IMG/VR virus record: IMGVR_UViG_3300042900_000549
Coordinates: 1 to 64,000 of that record
Origin: a virus
DNA length: 64,000 nucleotides
Reading direction: 5' to 3' (one strand)
Position 1 is the first letter of the stretch; every line of letters starts with the position of its first letter. The notes beneath the pieces were generated by a model that was not told where the DNA came from, did not search any database, and saw only the letters and a program-made list of their open reading frames with translations. Below are positions 1 to 62,158 of this stretch, in pieces. The position numbers and the translations under genes were made by a program.

Positions 1-924
1 TACCTACATAAAGCAATAAAATCTCTCAATCAACTTCGGATGATTGAAGATTCTTTGGTAATTTATCGTATATCAAGAGCACCAGAACGTAGAATTTTCT
101 ATATTGATGTGGGTAATTTACCTAAAGTAAAAGCAGAACAATATCTCCGTGATGTTATGATGCGATATCGTAATAAACTTGTATATGATGCAAATACCGG
201 TGAAATACGTGATGATAAGAAATTTATGAGTATGATGGAAGATTTTTGGTTGCCACGTAGAGAAGGTGGACGTGGAACTGAAATCACTACACTTCCGGGC
301 GGACAAAATCTTGGAGAAATTACTGATATTAAGTATTTTCAAGAAAAACTCTACCGTTCACTAAATGTTCCGCCAACAAGAATAGGTGGAGAAGGTGGGT
401 TTAATCTTGGACGTTCATCTGAAATTTTAAGAGATGAATTAAAATTTACAAAATTTGTTGGGAGATTGAGAAAAAGATTTTCTAATATGTTCAGTGATAT
501 GCTGAGAACTCAATTAATTCTTAAAAATATAATTACTCCAGATGACTGGAAAATTATGAGAGAGCATATTCAATATGATTTCTTATACGATAATCATTTC
601 TCTGAGTTGAAAGAAGCAGAATTAATGACTGAAAGATTGAATATGGCAGCAACAGCAGAACCTTATATTGGTAAATACTATTCACAAGATTATGTAAGAA
701 GGAAAATTCTTCGTCAAACTGATGAAGAAATTGTGGAACAAGATATTTTAATTAAAAAAGAAATAGAAAGTGGTATTATTCCCGATCCAAATGCCCCAAT
801 TGATCCAAATACGGGAATGCCTATGGTGACAGGTGATTCTAGTAATGGATCATCTGGACAAGTTCCTATGGATCCGGGAATAGATGAAAAGAGTATGGAA
901 CCCCCAACAGAAAAAGGAATCTAA
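1..924 (+). CDS. g20: Portal vertex protein gp20 (5' end outside window)
   Basis: Frame open from base 1 (YLHKAIKSLNQLRMIEDSLVIYRISRAPERRIFYIDVGNLPK...EDFWLPRREGGRGTEITTLPGGQNLG), canonical T4-like portal motifs. Confidence 0.97.
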   Translation, partial: YLHKAIKSLNQLRMIEDSLVIYRISRAPERRIFYIDVGNLPKVKAEQYLRDVMMRYRNKLVYDANTGEIRDDKKFMSMMEDFWLPRREGGRGTEITTLPGGQNLGEITDIKYFQEKLYRSLNVPPTRIGGEGGFNLGRSSEILRDELKFTKFVGRLRKRFSNMFSDMLRTQLILKNIITPDDWKIMREHIQYDFLYDNHFSELKEAELMTERLNMAATAEPYIGKYYSQDYVRRKILRQTDEEIVEQDILIKKEIESGIIPDPNAPIDPNTGMPMVTGDSSNGSSGQVPMDPGIDEKSMEPPTEKGI

Positions 925-5943: not shown

Positions 5944-7419
5944 ATGAGTGACGTAGTTATATCTAAAAAGAATGAAGTTTTCATAAAGTTGGAATGCGAT
6001 CCTCATATCTTATATGAATTAGCACCATACTTTAGTTTTACTGTGGAATCGGCAAAGTTTATGCCACAGTATAGAGGAAAGAGGTGGGATGGAGAAATAA
6101 GACTACTAAGTACTGCTACTGGCGAAATATATGCGGGTCTTTTAGATAAGGTTATAGCAAAAATTAAAAATCATGGATATACTTATGAATTTAAGTCTAA
6201 TAAGTATTATGGTGCTCCTTTTGAAATAAATGAAGAAATATCACCAGATGGAGTATCTGGTTATATGAATCATATTTGCAATTTTACGCCATATGATTAT
6301 CAAATCAATGCTGTATATGAATGTTTGAGGTATAATAGAAAAACAATTATATCAGCAACATCTTCAGGTAAATCTTATATGATTTACTCAATTGTAAGAT
6401 ACTATGCAACAAAAGGGTTTAAAACATTAGTTGTATTTCCCACAACATCTTTGATTCATCAAATGTTTAAAGATTGGTCTGAGTATGGGTGGGATCCAGA
6501 AAATCATTGTCATATGATTTATTCAGGTCAAGAAAAGGATACAAATTTACCAATTACTCTTTCAACTTGGCAAAGTATTCATAAGTTAGATAAATCTTTT
6601 TTTGAAAATTATGATTGCGTGATTGTTGATGAATGTCACGGATGTAAAAGTAAAAGTCTTATTGACATTATGAAGAAGTCTCATAATGCAAAGTATCGCT
6701 TCGGATTTACCGGAACACTTTCTAATGGAGGAAAAGACTCACAAACTCACGAGTGGGTTATCTCTGGGTTATTTGGTCCATCATATAAAGCAGTAGGAAC
6801 AAAAGAACTAATTGAAAAGGGAAGGGCATCTGAATTGGATATTCATTGCCTAGTACTAAAGCATAATCCACAAAAATTTGATAAGTATGAGGATGAAATT
6901 CAATTTCTTATTACGAATGAGAAGAGAAACAATTTCATCAAAAATCTTGCTCTTGATATCAAAGGAAATACTCTAATTTTATTTTCAAGAGTAGAAACTC
7001 ATGGACTACCTTTATACGAACTCATAAATAATGGTAGTGATAATAATCGTAAAATATTTTTTGTTCACGGTGGAGTTGATGTTAAAGAACGAGAGCAAGT
7101 AAGGGAGATTACTGAAAGAGAAAACAACGCAATAATCGTTGCTTCTTATGGTGTGTTTAGTACAGGTATTTCAATCAAAAATTTACATAATGTAATTTTT
7201 GCTTCTCCAAGTAAGTCAAGAATTCGTAATTTACAGTCAATCGGTAGAGTTTTAAGAAAAGGAAGTAATAAAGATAAAGCAACTCTTTATGATATTTCTG
7301 ACGATTGTACTTATAATTCAAGAAAAAACTATACATTAAATCACTTTATAGAAAGGATTAAGATTTATACTGAAGAAGATTTTAATTACGAAATAATAAC
7401 AATCAATCTAAAAGAATAA
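5944..7419 (+). CDS. uvsW: SF2 DNA helicase UvsW
   Basis: Walker A ATSSGKS, DECH box, GFTGT, QSIGRVLR. Confidence 0.95.
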   Translation: MSDVVISKKNEVFIKLECDPHILYELAPYFSFTVESAKFMPQYRGKRWDGEIRLLSTATGEIYAGLLDKVIAKIKNHGYTYEFKSNKYYGAPFEINEEISPDGVSGYMNHICNFTPYDYQINAVYECLRYNRKTIISATSSGKSYMIYSIVRYYATKGFKTLVVFPTTSLIHQMFKDWSEYGWDPENHCHMIYSGQEKDTNLPITLSTWQSIHKLDKSFFENYDCVIVDECHGCKSKSLIDIMKKSHNAKYRFGFTGTLSNGGKDSQTHEWVISGLFGPSYKAVGTKELIEKGRASELDIHCLVLKHNPQKFDKYEDEIQFLITNEKRNNFIKNLALDIKGNTLILFSRVETHGLPLYELINNGSDNNRKIFFVHGGVDVKEREQVREITERENNAIIVASYGVFSTGISIKNLHNVIFASPSKSRIRNLQSIGRVLRKGSNKDKATLYDISDDCTYNSRKNYTLNHFIERIKIYTEEDFNYEIITINLKE

Positions 7420-7420
7420 T

Positions 7421-7810
7421 ATGGAAGATGACTTTTATGCTTCAATTAAGTTAAAGACTGGAGAAGAGATATTTGCTCGTGTTCTCCCGTGTGATGAAGA
7501 AAATAAAATAACATTAATTGTTACAAATCCAATTATAATTACAAGTGTCAAAGGTCGTGGAGATTCCTCTGGTTACAAAATAGAACCATGGATGAAAACA
7601 ACAACTGAAGATATGTTTATAATTCATATGAATAATGTAATAACTATGACTGAAACAAACGATTTAGAGATAATTATGATACATCAATCATTTGTAAGAA
7701 GAATTGAGGATATGAAAAATAACAGACATAGTGTATCACGTAAAATGGGATACATTGCAAATGTAAATGATGCTAAAGAACTATTAGAAAAGATTTATAA
7801 CAACTCATAG
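7421..7810 (+). CDS. Conserved T4-like hypothetical protein (Sm-like fold suspected)
   Basis: ASIKLKTGEEIFARV N-terminus, typical gene between uvsW and g55. Confidence 0.65.
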   Translation: MEDDFYASIKLKTGEEIFARVLPCDEENKITLIVTNPIIITSVKGRGDSSGYKIEPWMKTTTEDMFIIHMNNVITMTETNDLEIIMIHQSFVRRIEDMKNNRHSVSRKMGYIANVNDAKELLEKIYNNS

Positions 7811-7907
7811 ATATCACTTCGTGATAGTTTCCTTCGGAAACTAATCTTGTTATATAATTATTCTAGTAATATAGAAGCTTTAACTCACTCTCAAAACCCA
7901 CAAGCCT

Positions 7908-7937
7908 ATTATACATACATTCGTATAGGTCTGTCAA
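7908..7937 (-). promoter_or_regulatory. Consensus sigma70 promoter on the minus strand with no downstream ORF
   Basis: Reverse complement reads TTGACA (7937-7932), 18 nt, TATAAT (7913-7908). Confidence 0.65.
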
Positions 7938-7996
7938 GTGGTTGTTATTTCAGCAATTACGTGTTATAATATCTACATAATAAATTAGAAATACTT

Positions 7997-8536
7997 ATGA
8001 TTTCAACTGAAGTAATGGCAAAGAGAAAAAGGTCTGTTCATTATGTGAACAATAAAGAATTTTTAGAAGCACTCATTGTTTATAAAAAGAAATTAAGGGA
8101 CGCAGCAGAAAAAGAAATACCCAATATTACTGATGATGAATTAAAAAAATGGGTTAGTCCAAATAGACCTCCAATTCCAAATTATATTGGTGAATGTATT
8201 CTTAAAATTGCTACGCACCTATCCTTTAAACCTAATTTTGTAAATTATATGTTTAAAGATGACATGATTTCCGATGGCATCGAAAATTGCATTCAATATC
8301 TTCATAACTTTAATCCAGAGAAATCTCAAAATCCTTTTGCATACTTTACTCAAATTATTCACTTTGCATTTCTTCGTCGTATTCAAAAAGAAAAACGTCA
8401 ATTAGAAATCAAAAATAAAATTTTAGAAAGAACTGGGTTTGATGAAGTCTTTACAGATGATAATCATATTGACGGTACAAACTATTCGGATTATAATTCT
8501 ATTAAAGATAATGTACATATCCGAATGAATTCTTGA
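7997..8536 (+). CDS. g55: Late-transcription sigma factor gp55
   Basis: HYVNNKEFL, YIGECILKIATHLS, DMISDGIENC, NPFAYFTQI. Confidence 0.95.
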   Translation: MISTEVMAKRKRSVHYVNNKEFLEALIVYKKKLRDAAEKEIPNITDDELKKWVSPNRPPIPNYIGECILKIATHLSFKPNFVNYMFKDDMISDGIENCIQYLHNFNPEKSQNPFAYFTQIIHFAFLRRIQKEKRQLEIKNKILERTGFDEVFTDDNHIDGTNYSDYNSIKDNVHIRMNS

Positions 8537-8538
8537 AT

Positions 8539-9576
8539 ATGCGCGTAGCAATTTTAACAGACACCCACTGGTCTGCCAGAAAGTCTTCCAGATTATTTCA
8601 AGATTATTTTGAGCAATTCTATAAAAATGTGTTTTTCCCGACGCTGGAACAGTACGGGATTGATACAGTTATTCATATGGGTGATGCTTTTGATAGTCGT
8701 AAATCAATTGATTTTGCTGGACTTGATTGGACTCGTAAAGTTGTACTTGAACCACTTTCAAAATATAAGGTTCATCTAATTACTGGAAATCACGATGTTT
8801 ATTTTAAGAATTCTAATAAAGTAAATTCTCCTGAACTTTTACTTAAAGATTATGGGAATATAACAACTTACTCTGAACCAACTGAGGTTAATATTGGGGG
8901 TTTAAATATTCTTCTTCTTCCCTGGATTAATTCTGAAAATCAAGATAAATCATTTAAATTGATTAAGAATACTAAAGCAAAGGTTGTAATGGGGCACCTT
9001 GAACTTCAAGGATTTAGAGTAAATAAAAACTTAGTAATGAATGAACATGGATTGGAAGCAAATATTTTTTCAAACTTCGCAAAGGTATTTTCTGGTCATT
9101 ACCACACTCGTTCTGATAATGGAACTGTCTTCTATCTGGGTAATCCTTACGAGATATACTGGAATGATGTAAATGATCCTCGTGGATTTACTATTTTTGA
9201 TACTGAAACATTAGAACATTTTCATATAGATAACCCCTATCGTATGTTCTATAACATATATTATGAGGACACTCCATATCAGACATTTGATGTGAGGGAG
9301 TATGAGAATAAAATTGTTCGGGTAATTGTTCGTAAAAAAACAGATATTAAGCAATTTGAAAGATTTGTTGATAAACTTTATACTGCGAATATTAGTGAAA
9401 TTAAAATTGTTGAAAATTTTCAAATTATAAACTTGGAAGAGTTTGAGGCATTTGAATCTGAAGATACTTTTTCTATTCTCCAAAGATATGTGACTGAAAG
9501 TGAATGTGAACTGGATAAAACTACTATAATTAATATACTGGAAGAAGTATACAAAGAAGCATTAGAGATGGTATAA
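8539..9576 (+). CDS. g47: Recombination endonuclease subunit gp47 (Mre11/SbcD-like)
   Basis: Metallophosphoesterase motifs TDTH, GDAFD, GNHD, SGHYH. Confidence 0.95.
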   Translation: MRVAILTDTHWSARKSSRLFQDYFEQFYKNVFFPTLEQYGIDTVIHMGDAFDSRKSIDFAGLDWTRKVVLEPLSKYKVHLITGNHDVYFKNSNKVNSPELLLKDYGNITTYSEPTEVNIGGLNILLLPWINSENQDKSFKLIKNTKAKVVMGHLELQGFRVNKNLVMNEHGLEANIFSNFAKVFSGHYHTRSDNGTVFYLGNPYEIYWNDVNDPRGFTIFDTETLEHFHIDNPYRMFYNIYYEDTPYQTFDVREYENKIVRVIVRKKTDIKQFERFVDKLYTANISEIKIVENFQIINLEEFEAFESEDTFSILQRYVTESECELDKTTIINILEEVYKEALEMV

Positions 9577-58334: not shown

Positions 58335-58372
58335 AAATACATAAGCAAGTCAGGGAATCCTCACATTGCTCC

Positions 58373-58470
58373 CGTGCTTACCGAGACTTTGCACGATAAA
58401 TACGTCTCTCATATCTTCTCTAGGGGTGAGAAGAAATACTGATCCTATTCGTCTCCCTACGAATTATTAC
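58373..58470 (+). ncRNA. PhotoRC-II-like RNA in psbA leader
   Basis: Tandem pseudoknots CGTGC/GCACG with GAGAC/GTCTC and TCTTCTC/GAGAAGA with TAGGG/CCCTA. Confidence 0.7.
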
Positions 58471-58487
58471 TTAACCCTTTTTTACAA

Positions 58488-59807
58488 ATGACTGCTACAA
58501 TTGCTACACGCTCTAATACTAATCTATGGAATGATTTCTGTTCCTGGATTACTTCAACGAATAACAGGTTATATGTTGGGTGGTTCGGAGTCCTTATGAT
58601 TCCCTGCCTTCTCGCAGCGACTACTTGCTTCATTATTGCTTTTATTGGTGCTCCCCCTGTTGATATTGATGGGATCAGAGAACCAGTTGCTGGGTCTCTT
58701 ATGTACGGAAACAACATCATCTCTGGTGCCGTTGTTCCTTCTTCTAATGCTATCGGACTTCACTTTTATCCTATCTGGGAAGCAGCAAGTCTTGATGAAT
58801 GGCTCTATAATGGTGGTCCTTTTCAACTTGTTGTATTTCACTTCCTCATCGGCATTTATGCTTATATGGGTCGTGAATGGGAACTCTCCTATCGTCTAGG
58901 AATGCGTCCCTGGATTATGGTTGCTTACAGTGCTCCTGTTGCTGCTGCTACTGCCGTATTCCTAGTCTATCCCTTTGGTCAAGGTTCTTTCTCTGATGCT
59001 ATGCCTCTTGGAATTTCTGGAACCTTTAATTATATGCTTGTCTTCCAGGCAGAACATAACATCCTTATGCACCCCTTTCACATGTTAGGCGTCGCAGGTG
59101 TCTTCGGCGGATCACTTTTTAGCGCCATGCACGGTTCACTGGTGACTTCTTCACTGGTTCGTGAGACTACTGAAACTGAATCCCAAAACTACGGATATAA
59201 GTTCGGTCAAGAAGAAGAGACTTACAACATTGTTGCTGCACACGGTTACTTCGGTCGTCTTATTTTCCAATATGCGTCTTTCAATAACTCACGCAGTCTC
59301 CACTTCTTTCTGGCTGCCTGGCCAGTAGTTGGTATTTGGTTTACTGCTCTTGGCGTAAGCACAATGGCATTTAATCTGAACGGTTTTAATTTTAACCAGT
59401 CCATCGTTGATAGTCAAAACCGAGTAGTTCCTACTTGGGCGGACATTTTAACACGAGCAGGATTGGGTATGGAAGTGATGCACGAAAGGAACGCACATTA
59501 GTAAAATAGTGTCCTTACTGAGAAATTGGTAAGTGTAAATCGGATGAATTGCTGGAAACCCTCCAAATATAAGGGCAATCAGCATCCAAGTCTCAGATAC
59601 ATCTGAGAAAGGTTCAACGACTACCTGAGGGATATAGTTCCCTTAATAACAGGCAAGAGCGTCCGACACCTAAGTTCTAATAGAATACGGTGATGATATA
59701 GTCTTCTCCATAAGAATGGTAAACTTATGGGTCCAGAGAACTTTCCTTTAGATCTTGCATTTTTAGAATCAACCCCAGTTGCTCTAACGGCACCTACAGT
59801 AGGTTGA
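58488..59807 (+). CDS. psbA: Photosystem II D1 protein; exons 58488-59498 and 59739-59807 (359 aa spliced)
   Basis: Full D1 sequence; joining gives ...EVMHERNAH|[22 protein letters not shown]. Confidence 0.96.
59499..59738 (+). mobile_element. Group I self-splicing intron (240 nt, no ORF)
   Basis: Exon ends in U, intron ends in G; P1 ACAU|UA pairs with UAGUGU (U.G at splice site); P AATTGCTGGAAA, Q AATCAGCA, R TTCAACGACTA, S GATATAGTC; P3 TCGGATG/CGTCCGA. Confidence 0.93.
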
Positions 59808-59861: not shown

Positions 59862-59899
59862 GTATAAATAACTATAGCACTAACTTTGGATTAGAAGTA

Positions 59900-60634
59900 A
59901 TGAAAAATGTATTTTACACTTATGCTTATTTGAGGGAGGATGGAACTCCTTATTATATTGGTAAGGGTAAAGGTAAAAGAGCATATGATAGAAAAAGGCA
60001 TAGTGCTTATGTCCCATCAAGAAATAGGATTTTAATATTAAAGAAAAATCTTACTGAAGATGAAGCATTTATTCACGAAATTTATATGATTTCAATCTTT
60101 GGTAGAAAAGATTTGGAAACTGGTATTCTTTATAATCTAACAGATGGTGGAGATGGACCTTCTGGATATGTTTATACAGAAGAACAAAGGAAAAAAATGG
60201 GAGATATGCGTAGAGGAAAGAAGAGACCAAGACAAAGTAAGATTATGAAGGAAAAAAATCATTTACAAATAGTGAATGAAAATAAAATAAACGAATTGAG
60301 AAAAAATTGTCCACCAGAAAAAATTGCTGAACTTTATATTGAGGGTAAAACTCTTAGAGAAATAAAATCAATTTTGGGATGTGGGATGGTTTGGATTAGA
60401 AAATCATTGGATGAAATGGAAGTTAAAATAAGACATAGAAACGACTATGGAAATCCTATGAACGACAAAGAAGTTAGAGATAAAATTTCTCAAAAAGCAA
60501 TAGAAAGAGGTGCTTGGTCTGGGGATAAAAATCCAAATTCAGGGGAAGGTATTTGTAGGGATAAAATAATACAAAGAACAAAAGAAGTAAATACTGGAAA
60601 ACAAAATTGGAAGTATAGGAAACCTAAAAACTAA
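59900..60634 (+). CDS. Free-standing GIY-YIG homing endonuclease with NUMOD3-like and HTH-like C-terminal regions
   Basis: [47 protein letters not shown]; late promoter 59863. Confidence 0.85.
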
Positions 60635-60699
60635 AATGCTAATAATCCTCACAGTCTTCCAAGTATTCGGATTCTTCCTCTTCATAATGTCTCTGCTCT

Positions 60700-60756
60700 C
60701 TTGACGCCATTCAATAAGACTGCTATAATACGCACAAAGACACAAAACAATTATGA
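60700..60756 (+). repeat. Early-promoter cassette, copy 1
   Basis: CTTGACGCCATTCAATAAGAC-TGC-TATAATA...ACAAAG...CAAAACA..TTATGA; TTGACG-17-TATAAT. Confidence 0.85.
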
Positions 60757-61520
60757 CTGAATTCACACAAGAACAAGTAGAAGAATTTAATAAATGCAAA
60801 AATGACCCAGTATATTTCATTAACAATTATGTGAAATTTGTAACTATTGATAAGGGACTCACAGACTTCAAACTCTATCCCTATCAAGAAGACCTGATTA
60901 ATAAGTATCATAACAACCGCTTCAATATATGTAAAAGTTCAAGACAAGTAGGTAAAACTTCAACTGGTCTCTTCTATGTTTTACATCACATAATTTTTAA
61001 TGATAATGTGACTGATGGGATATTCTCCTTTAATACATTAAATGCTCGTAATAGTTTACAAAGATTAATGACTGCTTATGAAAATCTTCCAGAATGGATG
61101 CAACATAAGGTTATCATTAAGAATAAGTCCACATTAGAATTGGAGAATGGTTCTAGAGTTATTGTAGGTAATACAACATATAATAGTTTCAAGGGTCGGA
61201 TGTTTAATCTTACCTTCCTAGATGAGTTTGCATTTGTTCCAGATAAAGATGCACAGAGCGTAGTAGATATAATGCTCCCTATGTTTACTGCAAATAAATC
61301 TAGTAAAGTCGTCATTGCATCTTCATTTAAACCTAAAGATAACTGCTTCAATAAAATCTGGAAAGACTCTGAAGATGGTAAGAATTCTTTTGTAAGAACT
61401 ACAATCAAATGGTATGAGATTCCAGGGAGGGATGAAGAATGGAAAGAACAGATGATTGCTAATATAGGTATTGATGCCTGGAATCAGGAATTTGAATGTG
61501 AGTCTGCAGAGAACCCTTGA
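60753..61520 (+). CDS. Stand-alone large-terminase (gp17)-like ATPase domain
   Basis: KCKNDPVYFINNYVK, LYPYQ, SRQVGKTS, FLDEFAFVP, W.EIPGRDEEWK, ends at QEFECE; no nuclease domain. Confidence 0.85.
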   Translation: MTEFTQEQVEEFNKCKNDPVYFINNYVKFVTIDKGLTDFKLYPYQEDLINKYHNNRFNICKSSRQVGKTSTGLFYVLHHIIFNDNVTDGIFSFNTLNARNSLQRLMTAYENLPEWMQHKVIIKNKSTLELENGSRVIVGNTTYNSFKGRMFNLTFLDEFAFVPDKDAQSVVDIMLPMFTANKSSKVVIASSFKPKDNCFNKIWKDSEDGKNSFVRTTIKWYEIPGRDEEWKEQMIANIGIDAWNQEFECESAENP

Positions 61521-61571
61521 CGCCATTCAATAAGACGCCTATAATACTCACAAAGTCGCAAAACATTATGA
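61516..61571 (+). repeat. Early-promoter cassette, copy 2
   Basis: CTTGACGCCATTCAATAAGAC-GCC-TATAATA...ACAAAG...CAAAACA.TTATGA. Confidence 0.85.
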
Positions 61572-61786
61572 AAGCAACAGAATTTTGCTATTGGTTACAG
61601 GGTTATTTTGAACTGGACCAGGCATCCTCAAAACCTGGGAACTCCCTCTCAGACGAGCAAGTAGAGGTCATTCGGAGGCATCTTGCACTAGTCTTTAAGC
61701 ACGACATTGACCCACAAGCAGGACCATCAAAATATCAGGCAGCGTTGAATGATATTCATGGTGGTAATGGAATGTATAGGTGTTGA
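61568..61786 (+). CDS. Hypothetical protein
   Basis: MKATEFCYWLQGYFEL...IRRHLALVF; starts after promoter copy 2. Confidence 0.7.
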   Translation: MKATEFCYWLQGYFELDQASSKPGNSLSDEQVEVIRRHLALVFKHDIDPQAGPSKYQAALNDIHGGNGMYRC

Positions 61787-61798
61787 TAAAAATTAATT

Positions 61799-62158
61799 AT
61801 GGATTGGTTAGAACCCCTTAGACAAGATACTGAAAGAATCCGCCAGGAAAACATAAAAATCAGAGAAGAGACTGAAAAACTTAGAGAGAGTAACCGAAAA
61901 CTTAAAGAATTAAATCAAAACCCAGAAAGACTATCAAAAATCGTTGAAAAGACAACTATGACTGAAAAAACATTTGACCCAAACCCAACAACTGAATGTG
62001 TAGCAAAAGAACCTACAGAAAGTCAGATTAGAAAGCGTATGGAATTAACTCAAGAAAGTTATTATACTGCTAGAGAAAATCTCCGAGAAGAAGCATACAA
62101 AACAACACATAGCAAACCACCAGGACAATCTTGGGGGGATTACTGGAAAAGTTATTGA
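61799..62158 (+). CDS. Hypothetical coiled-coil protein
   Basis: 119-aa ORF. Confidence 0.55.
   Translation: MDWLEPLRQDTERIRQENIKIREETEKLRESNRKLKELNQNPERLSKIVEKTTMTEKTFDPNPTTECVAKEPTESQIRKRMELTQESYYTARENLREEAYKTTHSKPPGQSWGDYWKSY

What the first reader, a model, noticed from the sequence alone, without database searches (positions are those of the whole stretch)
60753..61520. ATPase-only large-terminase paralogue under an early promoter: candidate decoy or packaging antagonist
Seen: a 255-aa ORF with T4-gp17 ATPase motifs (LYPYQ adenine-binding, SRQVGKTS Walker A, FLDEFAF Walker B, IASS at the coupling-motif position) that stops just after QEFECE, with no RNase-H-like nuclease following. It sits far from the head/packaging module behind a TTGACG-17-TATAAT promoter rather than a TATAAATA late promoter. 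Established: QEFECE is near the ATPase/nuclease boundary in T4-like terminases, and Avs/AVAST STAND defence proteins sense phage large terminases. Inference: a clean domain-boundary truncation with intact motifs looks selected rather than decayed; it could be a decoy for terminase-sensing immunity, a dominant-negative inhibitor of co-infecting phages, or a repurposed ATPase.
Basis: partly seen in the sequence, partly recalled or inferred. Interest (0 to 1): 0.78.

Follow-up and report, generated by a model that had tools for sequence, protein, structure and literature searches.

The report
Nuclease-less terminase copy beside cyanophage psbA
A lake cyanophage carries, next to its photosynthesis gene psbA, an extra early-expressed copy of only the ATPase half of its DNA-packaging enzyme; it belongs to an undescribed, conserved gene family found only in uncultured phages, and its job is still unknown.

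Summary
ORF 60753-61520 (255 aa) is a T4-type large-terminase (gp17) ATPase domain with intact motifs. It has no nuclease domain and sits behind a perfect TTGACG-17-TATAAT promoter, about 60 kb from the portal gene.

It is not a one-off fragment. About 40 short homologues (56-90% identical) form one clade nested in cyanomyovirus gp17. No protein of 448 aa or more exceeds 54% identity. None of 50,697 deposited phage records carries the family.

All four loci with DNA place the gene just downstream of psbA and a homing-endonuclease gene. One of these records also has a full-length g17. The window's own contig starts inside g20, just downstream of where g17 lies in relatives.

Pairwise dN/dS is 0.26-0.36, against about 0.05 for genuine gp17. 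The gene sits between two near-identical promoter-leader repeats, and a co-occurring lake variant lacks it.

New here: the family ends 2-19 residues after the site where genuine g17 genes are split by a known atypical split intein plus a GIY-YIG endonuclease. The tidy domain-boundary truncation may therefore be a homing-site scar, not only the result of selection.

Function is untested. A gp17 mimic that engages packaging partners is my best guess. The Avs-decoy idea has no support.

The parts
1..762 (+). 3' part of the portal gene g20. The contig starts inside it. Context only: it marks where the packaging module lies.
   Evidence: Portal_T4 PF07230, E 1.1e-130, profile 177-433. In relatives g17 ends 3,670-4,599 nt upstream of this stretch.
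58488..59501 (+). psbA (D1) first exon, followed by a group I intron at about 59489-59722. This is the conserved left neighbour of the family.
   Evidence: ORF and translation. Rfam Intron_gpI 88.2 bits and PhotoRC-II at 58361-58447. psbA lies upstream of the paralogue in L085, L086 and L088 too.
59900..60634 (+). Free-standing GIY-YIG/NUMOD-like homing-endonuclease gene behind a TATAAATA at 59863.
   Evidence: PHROG phrog_314 'homing endonuclease' 1.3e-10. The Pfam GIY-YIG hit is below cut-off. 28% identity, E 2e-6, to the endonuclease inside a fractured g17. TATAAATA.
60637..60705 (+). Small 22-codon hydrophobic ORF, or a repeated DNA element, that ends in the -35 box. It is conserved upstream of the paralogue in L085 and L086, with a partial second copy at record 65603-65635.
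   Evidence: Several Logan contigs break or branch here.
60700..60755 (+). Promoter-leader unit, copy 1: -35 TTGACG at 60701, -10 TATAAT at 60724, leader, ATG.
   Evidence: 90% identical over 50 nt to copy 2.
60753..61520 (+). Nuclease-less gp17 (TerL) ATPase-domain paralogue, 255 aa. This is the finding.
61516..61570 (+). Promoter-leader unit, copy 2. The ORF's TGA stop lies inside its -35 box. It drives ORF 61568-61786.
   Evidence: In P0001, P0002 and P0020 the protein tail ...EDLDAIQ is what this element gives if read one base out of the window's frame. That is my reading; their DNA was not seen.
61568..61786 (+). 72-aa ORF of unknown function. Together with the paralogue it is missing from the co-occurring variant.
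   Evidence: PHROG phrog_28500, unknown function, 6.2e-7. Joint 60755->61799.
61799..62158 (+). Next ORF. Its ATG is the right-hand junction of the variant that lacks the cassette.

Best explanation
Shown:
- The ORF is a real member of a gene family that encodes only the ATPase domain of a T4-type large terminase.
- The family is a single clade derived from cyanomyovirus g17.
- It is found only as short forms and lies just downstream of psbA and a homing-endonuclease gene.
- Here it sits in a unit bracketed by two near-identical sigma-70-type promoter-leader repeats.
- It is under purifying selection, about five times weaker than on gp17, and it is dispensable: a co-occurring variant lacks it.

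Inferred origin (about 0.45): an intein-less g17 was cut at or near the homing site of the TerL split-intein/GIY-YIG element. The 5' piece was captured in the psbA-flanking endonuclease hot spot.

Inferred mechanism (about 0.3-0.35): the protein is made early. It keeps an ATP-binding core and the helix-loop-helix stretch that in T4 contacts the portal, but it has no DNA-gripping nuclease/translocation domain. It would therefore act as a gp17 mimic. It would occupy a gp17 partner (portal clip, small terminase or the gp17 ring) without moving DNA. That would either modulate the phage's own packaging or poison the motor of a co-infecting cyanomyovirus.
For: Family and clade:
- 37 short forms make one branch (SH-aLRT 100, stem 0.72) inside a starred group with five cyanomyovirus gp17 representatives.
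- The 120 best near-length proteins split into about 34 short forms at 56-90% identity and gp17 pieces at 54% or less.
- The best protein of 448 aa or more is 54% identical, and the 120 listed of 7,563 hits all carry Terminase_6C.

Motifs in 40 family members: Q45 40/40, R64 38/40, GK[ST] 39/40, DE 37/40.

Selection:
- pN<pS in 6 of 6 pairs, Fisher p from 9e-6 to 2e-14.
- dN/dS 0.26-0.36, against 0.05-0.06 in the 4 of 8 gp17 pairs that gave a value.

New surface: 20 family-specific conserved sites, 14 of them at residues 206-244. That stretch aligns with T4 gp17 residues about 300-347, including W333-E357. A review states that portal-interacting residues lie in a helix-loop-helix by the hinge and that the peptide inhibits packaging in vitro (passage, PMC9958956).

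Context:
- psbA and an endonuclease gene lie upstream in 4 of 4 loci with DNA.
- Full-length g17 (560 aa) is present in the same record as L085.
- Flanking repeats.
- A 313-nt contig joins 60755 to 61799 in 2 of 4 runs laid, at depth 17.7 vs 43.8 and 15.3 vs 35.3.

Origin:
- Genuine g17 in L190 and L135 is split at ...FE|C... by an intein plus a GIY-YIG gene. The L190 C-half matches PDB 6DSL_B, E 1.2e-52.
- 5 of the 120 near-length hits are halves bearing an intein N-fragment at the same site.
- Family tails such as CKFLGS match the residues that follow the site in intact gp17.
- Endonuclease-flanked cassettes are reported either in the gp17-gp18 region or near psbA (section 27 of PMC3037559).
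Against: - No expression, ATPase or binding data exist. No RNA run holds the stretch.
- Selection is relaxed.
- The aromatic residue before the adenine-binding Q is kept in only 17 of 40 members, against 31 of 31 gp17.
- 18 of 40 have a one-residue insertion in Walker A.
- Single members show DE->DD (L086), G->A in Walker A (P0244) or loss of the last 25 residues (L087/L088).
- A protein that binds a portal as conserved as this one (83-98% identity across 27 relatives) would also hit the phage's own motor, which needs an extra assumption.
- The gene is dispensable in nature and absent from all isolates.
- The homing-site origin rests on a coincidence of position. Only 8 of 165 genuine g17 have TTGAC in that stretch, so promoter microhomology does not explain the junction.
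- The mapping of the T4 portal-contact residues (333-352) is recalled, not read in a call.
Confidence: 0.35

Rival explanations
1. Repurposed ATPase with a job unrelated to packaging, for example acting on host or phage DNA or proteins early in infection. The terminase ancestry would be only history.
For: Catalytic residues are kept in 37-40 of 40 members, which a pure binder would not need. There is a long stem branch and 20 family-specific conserved sites. The promoter is sigma-70 type, not late. Some members have an unrelated 55-aa module fused at the N terminus. Elsewhere that module is a separate 57-67 aa ORF.
Against: No new domain or partner is identifiable. The DNA-binding/translocating half is the part that was lost. 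The adenine-stacking residue and Walker A geometry are altered in about half of the members.
Confidence: 0.25
2. Selfish hitch-hiker: a g17 fragment created by endonuclease damage that spreads with the psbA-flanking homing elements. Its apparent constraint is residual and it is slowly decaying.
For: It is always beside homing-endonuclease genes of three different families. There is presence/absence polymorphism. dS among copies is low (0.25-1.4) while gp17 pairs of similar or higher protein identity are saturated, which suggests recent spread. dN/dS is five-fold higher than for gp17. Truncated and motif-damaged members exist. The boundary lies at a known homing site.
Against: pN<pS is highly significant in all 6 pairs, including the closest one (dN 0.081, dS 0.252). 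The frame is open at 250-330 aa in about 40 cluster representatives across two deep subclades. Family-specific residues are conserved at 90% or more.
Confidence: 0.2
3. N-terminal half of a fractured (split-intein or intron-split) g17 that is joined to a nuclease half encoded elsewhere. It would then be the phage's real terminase.
For: Such halves exist, end at the same ...FE| site and are 293-319 aa long (PMC2677866 passages). The record is only 43% complete.
Against: The ORF has only 6 residues after the Cys and no intein N-fragment motif. No Terminase_6C or intein C-fragment gene is in the 83.7 kb. No intron follows the ORF. The family is a separate clade at most 54% identical to any gp17. 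A relative carries it together with an intact 560-aa g17.
Confidence: 0.03
4. Decoy that soaks up terminase-sensing Avs/STAND immunity of the host.
For: Only the general facts that Avs1-3 sense large terminases (passages of PMC13581612) and that the gene has an early-type promoter.
Against: KpAvs2 is reported to bind the terminase ATPase domain and to become toxic on co-expression (passage of PMC11564622). An early ATPase-only copy should then activate rather than blind the sensor. No terminase decoy turned up in the library search. The two papers I opened use the word only for mass-spectrometry target-decoy filtering. No PADLOC family matched, which says little. Host defence content is unknown.
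Confidence: 0.05

Closest known systems
T4 gp17 ATPase domain (residues 1-360; PDB 2O0H, 3EZK, 3CPE)
   Same: Same fold family by sequence (E about 1e-32). The same motif set aligns column for column: YQ, SRQxGKT, DE, S/T motif III. It ends at T4 residue about 357, the limit of the ATPase domain.
   Different: It is a natural stand-alone gene, not a laboratory construct. It lacks the first ~100 residues of T4 gp17, though only about 20 relative to cyanophage gp17. It has 20 family-specific conserved residues, mostly in subdomain II. It is encoded away from the packaging module under an early-type promoter.
N-terminal halves of fractured terminase genes with atypical split inteins (GOS-TerL, AceL-TerL and Cat-TerL type; Dassa et al. 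2009, PMC2677866)
   Same: ATPase-only ORFs of T4-like phages from lakes and oceans. They break at the same ...FE|C... position and are associated with a GIY-YIG endonuclease gene.
   Different: Those carry a 25-45 aa intein N-fragment. They are followed by the endonuclease gene and an intein-C-plus-nuclease gene, sit in the packaging module, and are about 90% identical to ordinary gp17 (L190). The window's ORF has none of these features and keeps residues from beyond the splice site.
Promoter-early stem-loop (PeSL) cassettes of T4-type phages (Arbiol et al. 2010, PMC2839356; Comeau et al. 2014, PMC4122927)
   Same: Variable ORFs are bracketed by repeated early-promoter units. Gene gain, loss or replacement between close relatives has junctions at those units. 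Titles and abstracts were seen.
   Different: No stem-loop/terminator part was found between the repeats. The word 'cyanophage' does not occur in PMC4122927. PMC2839356 was not read beyond the listing.
Endonuclease-flanked mobile cassettes of marine cyanomyoviruses (Sullivan et al. 2010, PMC3037559)
   Same: The paper reports hot spots between gp16 and gp17 and near psbA. It also reports a cassette that sits in the gp17-gp18 region in four genomes and near psbA in a fifth. This gives a plausible route from g17 to psbA.
   Different: That cassette carries carbon-metabolism genes. No terminase fragment is mentioned in the passages and section I read. Its supplementary tables and figures were not seen.

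Membership tests
T4-type large terminase (gp17/TerL) | N-terminal ATPase domain (Terminase_6N) with Walker A, Walker B plus catalytic Glu, adenine-binding Q and motif III | tested here: met
   Pfam 51.4 bits against a cut-off of 22. Motifs align with T4 gp17. All are present in the window's copy.
T4-type large terminase (gp17/TerL) | C-terminal RNase H-like nuclease/translocation domain (Terminase_6C) | tested here: not met
   Not in the ORF. No match in the whole 83,721-bp record at E<=1. The ORF stops at T4 residue about 357.
T4-type large terminase (gp17/TerL) | Position in the packaging module (g16-g17-g18-g19-g20) | tested here: not met
   About 60 kb from g20. In 46 of 80 related loci g17 lies 3.7-4.6 kb upstream of the g20 stretch.
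Fractured terminase half with split intein | Intein N-fragment (Cys/Ser1 motif, 25-45 aa) directly after ...FE | tested here: not met
   The window's tail after FE is CESAENP. 0 of the ~34 family members among the 120 listed show the motif, while 5 gp17 halves do.
Fractured terminase half with split intein | Downstream endonuclease gene followed by an intein-C-plus-nuclease gene | tested here: not met
   The downstream ORFs have no terminase or intein match. The contrast is L190 and L135.
PeSL-type mobile regulatory cassette | Repeated early-promoter units flanking a variable ORF | tested here: met
   Two copies, 0 mismatches to a 30-specified-base pattern; none expected by chance.
PeSL-type mobile regulatory cassette | Stem-loop (terminator) joined to the promoter | tested here: not met
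   No terminator-like site between 59952 and 62660.
PeSL-type mobile regulatory cassette | Insertion, deletion or replacement between close relatives with junctions at the units | tested here: met
   Joint 60755->61799 in runs X15 and X16, with the left arm lying in the promoter-leader unit.
Anti-defence decoy for Avs sensors | Binds the sensor without activating it and protects the phage | not testable with these tools
No host genome or Avs partner is known.

The most novel reading that the evidence does not exclude
The family is a phage weapon. It is an early-made, nuclease-less terminase mimic that docks on portals or terminase rings of co-infecting cyanomyoviruses and blocks their DNA packaging. 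It spreads between phages by riding the psbA homing-endonuclease hot spot. This would be a natural dominant-negative packaging inhibitor and a new class of inter-phage competition gene.
Probability: 0.15. Interest if true: 0.85.

Novelty: new variant of a known kind. Interest (0 to 1): 0.6.

Why it matters
Large terminases are treated as single-copy, strictly vertical hallmark genes. They are used as phylogenetic markers and are the targets of bacterial Avs sensors.

A conserved, mobile, ATPase-only offshoot has three consequences. First, it can confound marker-based counts and annotation: sources name members 'terminase family protein' or 'FluMu gp28-like'. Second, it shows that a core motor domain can be recruited as an accessory gene. 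Third, it offers a natural test of whether a motor subunit without its DNA-moving half regulates or sabotages packaging.

The position match with the TerL split-intein homing site also gives a concrete example of how selfish endonucleases may create new genes from essential ones.

Tried and rejected
1. Full-length g17 in the record: none. The second weak Terminase_6N hit at record 70783-71115 (18.1 bits, below cut-off) lies in a 256-aa ORF that reads like PhoH. That is my reading, not tested.

2. I first thought the 55-aa N-terminal extension of P0007 and L085 came from the ORF upstream of g17 in S-H9-2. This is rejected: BLASTP E 0.13, and a tblastn of the extension hits only L085/L004 among all loci held plus the record.

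3. Promoter microhomology (TTGAC in the g17 codons at the boundary) as the cause of the junction: only 8 of 165 genuine g17 have it. Weak.

4. The metagenome scan with the family alignment returned 80 loci, all genuine gp17 at 49-53%, because the chosen peptide patterns are shared with gp17. It served only as a comparison set.

5. RNA evidence: no RNA holder was listed among the 23 runs, so nothing can be said on expression. No variable letters were found inside the ORF in the 4 runs laid, so no population pN/pS was possible.

6. Rfam on L190 and L135 gave no match. The interruption there turned out to be a split intein, not an intron.

7. The Protein Atlas gave only terminase-fragment clusters. 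PADLOC gave no match.

8. Literature: searches found no paper in the held library that describes an ATPase-only terminase paralogue in cyanophages or a terminase decoy. Subscription papers and supplements were not searched. Supplementary tables and figures of PMC3037559 (gene clusters near psbA) and of PMC2677866 (terminase intein alignment) might bear on this and were not seen.

9. YN00 estimates failed with math errors on most pairs, so NG86 and my own site counts were used. For 4 of 8 gp17 pairs dS was too saturated to compute.

10. Rows dropped from the tree: P0003 (internal duplication), P0012 and P0015 (insert or long tail), P0019 and P0035 (truncated), L087 (same as L088), L004 (same as L085). 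gp17 was thinned to 34 representatives at under 80% identity out of 185. In one search three long-branch gp17 rows (L144, L141, L083) were dropped, and P0003, P0012, P0015 and P0019 were put back.
Full report
**What is there**

ORF 60753-61520 (+) encodes 255 aa. It matches Pfam Terminase_6N (E 1.4e-13), a PHROG terminase family (2.7e-52) and the solved T4 gp17 structures (E about 1e-32).

I aligned it with T4 gp17 from the T4 record, six genuine cyanophage gp17s and twelve relatives. It covers T4 residues about 100-357. The adenine-binding YQ, SRQxGKT, DE and motif III columns are all occupied by the expected residues.

The functional names and T4 residue numbers of these motifs are partly recalled. 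The general statements on the ATPase centre, subdomains I and II and the coupling motif were read in passages of PMC3012670 and PMC9958956.

The ORF ends six residues after a conserved Cys (...QEFEC-ESAENP). Neither the ORF nor the 83,721-bp record has a Terminase_6C nuclease domain.

The promoter TTGACG-17-TATAAT at 60701-60729 is one of nine perfect sites of that form, all on the + strand, against 0.14 expected. The nearest TATAAATA motifs are at 59863 and 62850.

**Which phage, and where its real terminase is**

The record is a 43%-complete fragment. It carries psbA with a group I intron and a PhotoRC-II element, and the 3' part of the portal gene g20 at its very start. I read several other ORFs as T4-like replication and baseplate genes from their sequences; they were not scanned against any family library. 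Twenty lake-water metagenome runs hold the stretch.

I fetched 80 loci through the portal fragment:
- 32 have a whole g17 upstream of g20, and 14 have a g17 cut by the locus end. Its end lies 3,670-4,599 nt before the portal stretch.
- 2 have g17 elsewhere.
- The remaining 32 all have under 6.5 kb of upstream flank.

The window's contig therefore stops just short of where its own g17 should be. I could not show that gene directly.

**It is a family**

A length-restricted protein search gave 480 hits among 701 candidates. Of the 120 listed:
- About 34 are short proteins (247-360 aa) at 56-90% identity. Each ends within 19 residues after the ...FE-Cys, except one with a 95-aa tail and three without the motif.
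- 72 are pieces of ordinary gp17 that run on into the nuclease domain.
- 5 are halves of fractured gp17.

Among proteins of 448 aa or more, the best is 54% identical, and all 120 listed (of 7,563 hits) carry Terminase_6C.

In a tree of 37 short forms and 34 gp17 representatives, the short forms are one branch (SH-aLRT 100, stem length 0.72). That branch lies inside a starred group with five cyanomyovirus gp17s, among them S-H9-2 and the gp17 of record G001. This was a quick search, so the support should be read with the tool's caveat on long branches.

The family has two subclades:
- 20 rows of the window's type (SRQxGKT, FLDEFAF).
- 17 rows with a one-residue insertion in Walker A and LLDEIG.

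No isolate carries the family. tblastn of the window protein, P0027 and P0007 against 50,697 phage records gave only matches under 60%, all to annotated gp17 in the rows listed. A 55-aa query from the family-specific C-terminal part hit 603 records, one place each, all under 60%.

The window's exact protein is on record from 24 contigs, the longest 127,955 bp. Close members lie on contigs of 225-255 kb.

**Context**

In all four the gene follows psbA within about 1.3 kb, with a homing-endonuclease-like gene between:

| Locus | Endonuclease-like gene between psbA and the paralogue |
|---|---|
| Window | GIY-YIG/NUMOD-like |
| L085 | GIY-YIG/NUMOD-like |
| L086 | Weak T5orf172-like match, below cut-off |
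| L088 | Endonuclease VII family, 1.8e-16; psbD follows |

Record G001, which holds L085, also has an intact 560-aa g17 next to the sheath gene, about 35 kb away.

Sullivan et al. 2010 report hot spots 'between gp16 and gp17' and 'near psbA'. They also report an endonuclease-flanked cassette found in the gp17-gp18 region in four genomes and near psbA in a fifth (passages and section 27).

**Cassette anatomy and dispensability**

The ORF lies between two promoter-leader units (60700-60755 and 61516-61570). They match a 30-specified-base pattern without mismatch and are 90% identical over 50 nt. The ORF's TGA is inside the second -35 box.

L085 and L086 show a degenerate copy of the same element at the 3' end of their ORFs. 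The junction therefore looks ancestral to the family.

Four lake runs were laid on 60400-61900. Contigs confirm both junctions of the ORF. Two runs also hold a 313-nt contig that joins 60755 to 61799, at depth 17.7 vs 43.8 and 15.3 vs 35.3. By its length, this contig replaces the paralogue and the next ORF with about 238 nt of other sequence; that figure is my inference from the piece table. The runs may include the source sample, so this is not independent confirmation of the assembly. It does show a co-occurring form without the gene.

**Selection**

| Pair | dN | dS | dN/dS (NG86) |
|---|---|---|---|
| Window - L085 | 0.206 | 0.79 | 0.26 |
| L086 - L088 | 0.081 | 0.252 | 0.32 |

- The other four pairs give 0.26-0.37, with dS about 1 or higher.
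- pN<pS in 6 of 6 pairs, Fisher p from 9e-6 to 2e-14.
- Genuine gp17 N-domains give 0.05-0.06 in the four pairs where dS could be computed.
- Of 63 sites at least 90% conserved in 31 gp17s, 29 are kept at 90% or more in 40 family members and 42 are kept as the majority residue. Twenty family-specific conserved sites exist, 14 of them at residues 206-244.

Against full function:
- The aromatic residue before the Q is kept in only 17 of 40 members.
- 18 of 40 have the Walker A insertion.
- Single members show DD, EE or YE for DE, and GKA for GK[ST].
- P0244 has A for the Walker A Gly.
- L087/L088 lack the last 25 residues, with no frameshifted continuation.

**The boundary**

Two genuine g17 genes among my loci (L190, L135) are broken at gp17 residue about 264. 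This corresponds to the ...FE|C... of the family.
- In L190 the first gene ends with a 29-aa tail that begins with a Cys.
- A GIY-YIG gene follows (Pfam 1.9e-7).
- The next gene starts with 108 residues that match the PDB chain 'Consensus engineered intein CatC' (6DSL_B, E 1.2e-52), then ...SHN|CEFLGSVDTLI.
- L135 has the Ser-first version, with a NUMOD3-bearing endonuclease gene and a Terminase_6C second half.

This is the known 'fractured gene' arrangement. Dassa et al. 2009 list a terminase locus from Lake Gatun whose intein is split at an unusual point (passages). A 2025 review describes the GOS-TerL, AceL-TerL and Cat-TerL atypical split inteins (passages).

The family's proteins end 2-19 residues after this site. 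Many keep the residues that follow it in intact gp17 (CKFLGS, CKFVDS, CEFLNELE). None has an intein N-fragment.

I infer that the ancestor was an intein-less g17 truncated at or near the homing site. The 'clean' domain boundary may therefore be a scar of endonuclease activity. This is an inference from position only.

**Mechanism**

Nothing on function could be tested: structure prediction and complex prediction were closed.

The best-supported guess rests on three points:
- The ATP-binding core is retained.
- The DNA-moving half is lost.
- The stretch aligned to T4 W333-E357 has a conserved but altered surface.

A review places portal-interacting residues in a helix-loop-helix by the hinge and reports that the peptide inhibits packaging in vitro. 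The exact residue range 333-352 is recalled.

On this reading the protein is a gp17 mimic that binds a packaging partner without translocating DNA. Whether it tunes the phage's own packaging or harms competitors is open.

The Avs-decoy idea has no support and one argument against it. KpAvs2 is reported to bind the terminase ATPase domain and to become toxic with it.

**Verdict**

The finding is real and the family appears undescribed in the library I could search. It is a new variant of a known kind: a terminase ATPase domain turned accessory gene.

- Descriptive part (family, context, selection, dispensability): about 0.85.
- Homing-site origin: about 0.45.
- gp17-mimic mechanism: about 0.3-0.35.

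Noticed in passing
L190 2573-4542; L135 7929-10570: Genuine g17 genes are fractured at ...FE|C... by an atypical split intein, with a GIY-YIG/NUMOD3 endonuclease gene between the halves. The L190 C-half matches PDB 6DSL_B (Cat intein) at 1.2e-52. Five more such N-halves are among the protein hits (P0060, P0086, P0089, P0094, P0104).
   Followed up: yes
window 60637-60705; record 65603-65635; L085 and L086 upstream of the paralogue: A roughly 33-70 nt element (TTCGGATTCTTCCTCTT... type) lies just before early-type promoters. At 60637 it reads as a 22-codon hydrophobic ORF, but the second copy has no start codon. Several Logan contigs branch here, as if it were a recombination joint.
   Followed up: partly
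P0005-P0007, P0009, P0011, P0013 (=L085 7845-8030); P0278-P0286: A 55-aa module (MKPLNTDMNAQRWAKEF...) is fused to the N terminus of many family members. Elsewhere it exists as a stand-alone 57-67 aa ORF. It has no Pfam match and is not related to gp17 loci.
   Followed up: partly
window 58361-59800: psbA is preceded by a PhotoRC-II RNA (57.9 bits) and interrupted by a group I intron (88.2 bits) just before the D1 C-terminal segment. psbA in L085 carries further insertions, including a LAGLIDADG ORF (8.2e-9).
   Followed up: partly
G001 contig 7125-8909 (L229/L230): The portal gene of the L085 phage matches Portal_T4 in two pieces, about 445 nt apart, within one 728-aa open frame. This suggests an in-frame insertion, possibly an intein.
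   Followed up: no
P0040, P0048, P0054-P0056, P0064, P0073, P0088, P0105 (about 339-340 aa, some on contigs over 100 kb): Many ordinary gp17 ORFs stop about 60-70 residues into the nuclease domain, after ...DYSAF..., on long contigs. This may be a second recurrent break point in g17.
   Followed up: no
P0016-P0018, P0021-P0023: These family members carry a ~70-aa stretch after Walker A that resembles ordinary gp17 more than it resembles other family members. This suggests gene conversion or mosaicism.
   Followed up: no
record 70603-71373: A 256-aa ORF gives a sub-threshold Terminase_6N hit (18.1 bits). By its P-loop and length it reads like PhoH, common in cyanophages.
   Followed up: no
P0027 (MDW7641551.1): A family member is deposited as 'terminase family protein [Nitrosarchaeum sp.]' from a MAG. 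This is probably a phage contig binned with an archaeon.
   Followed up: no
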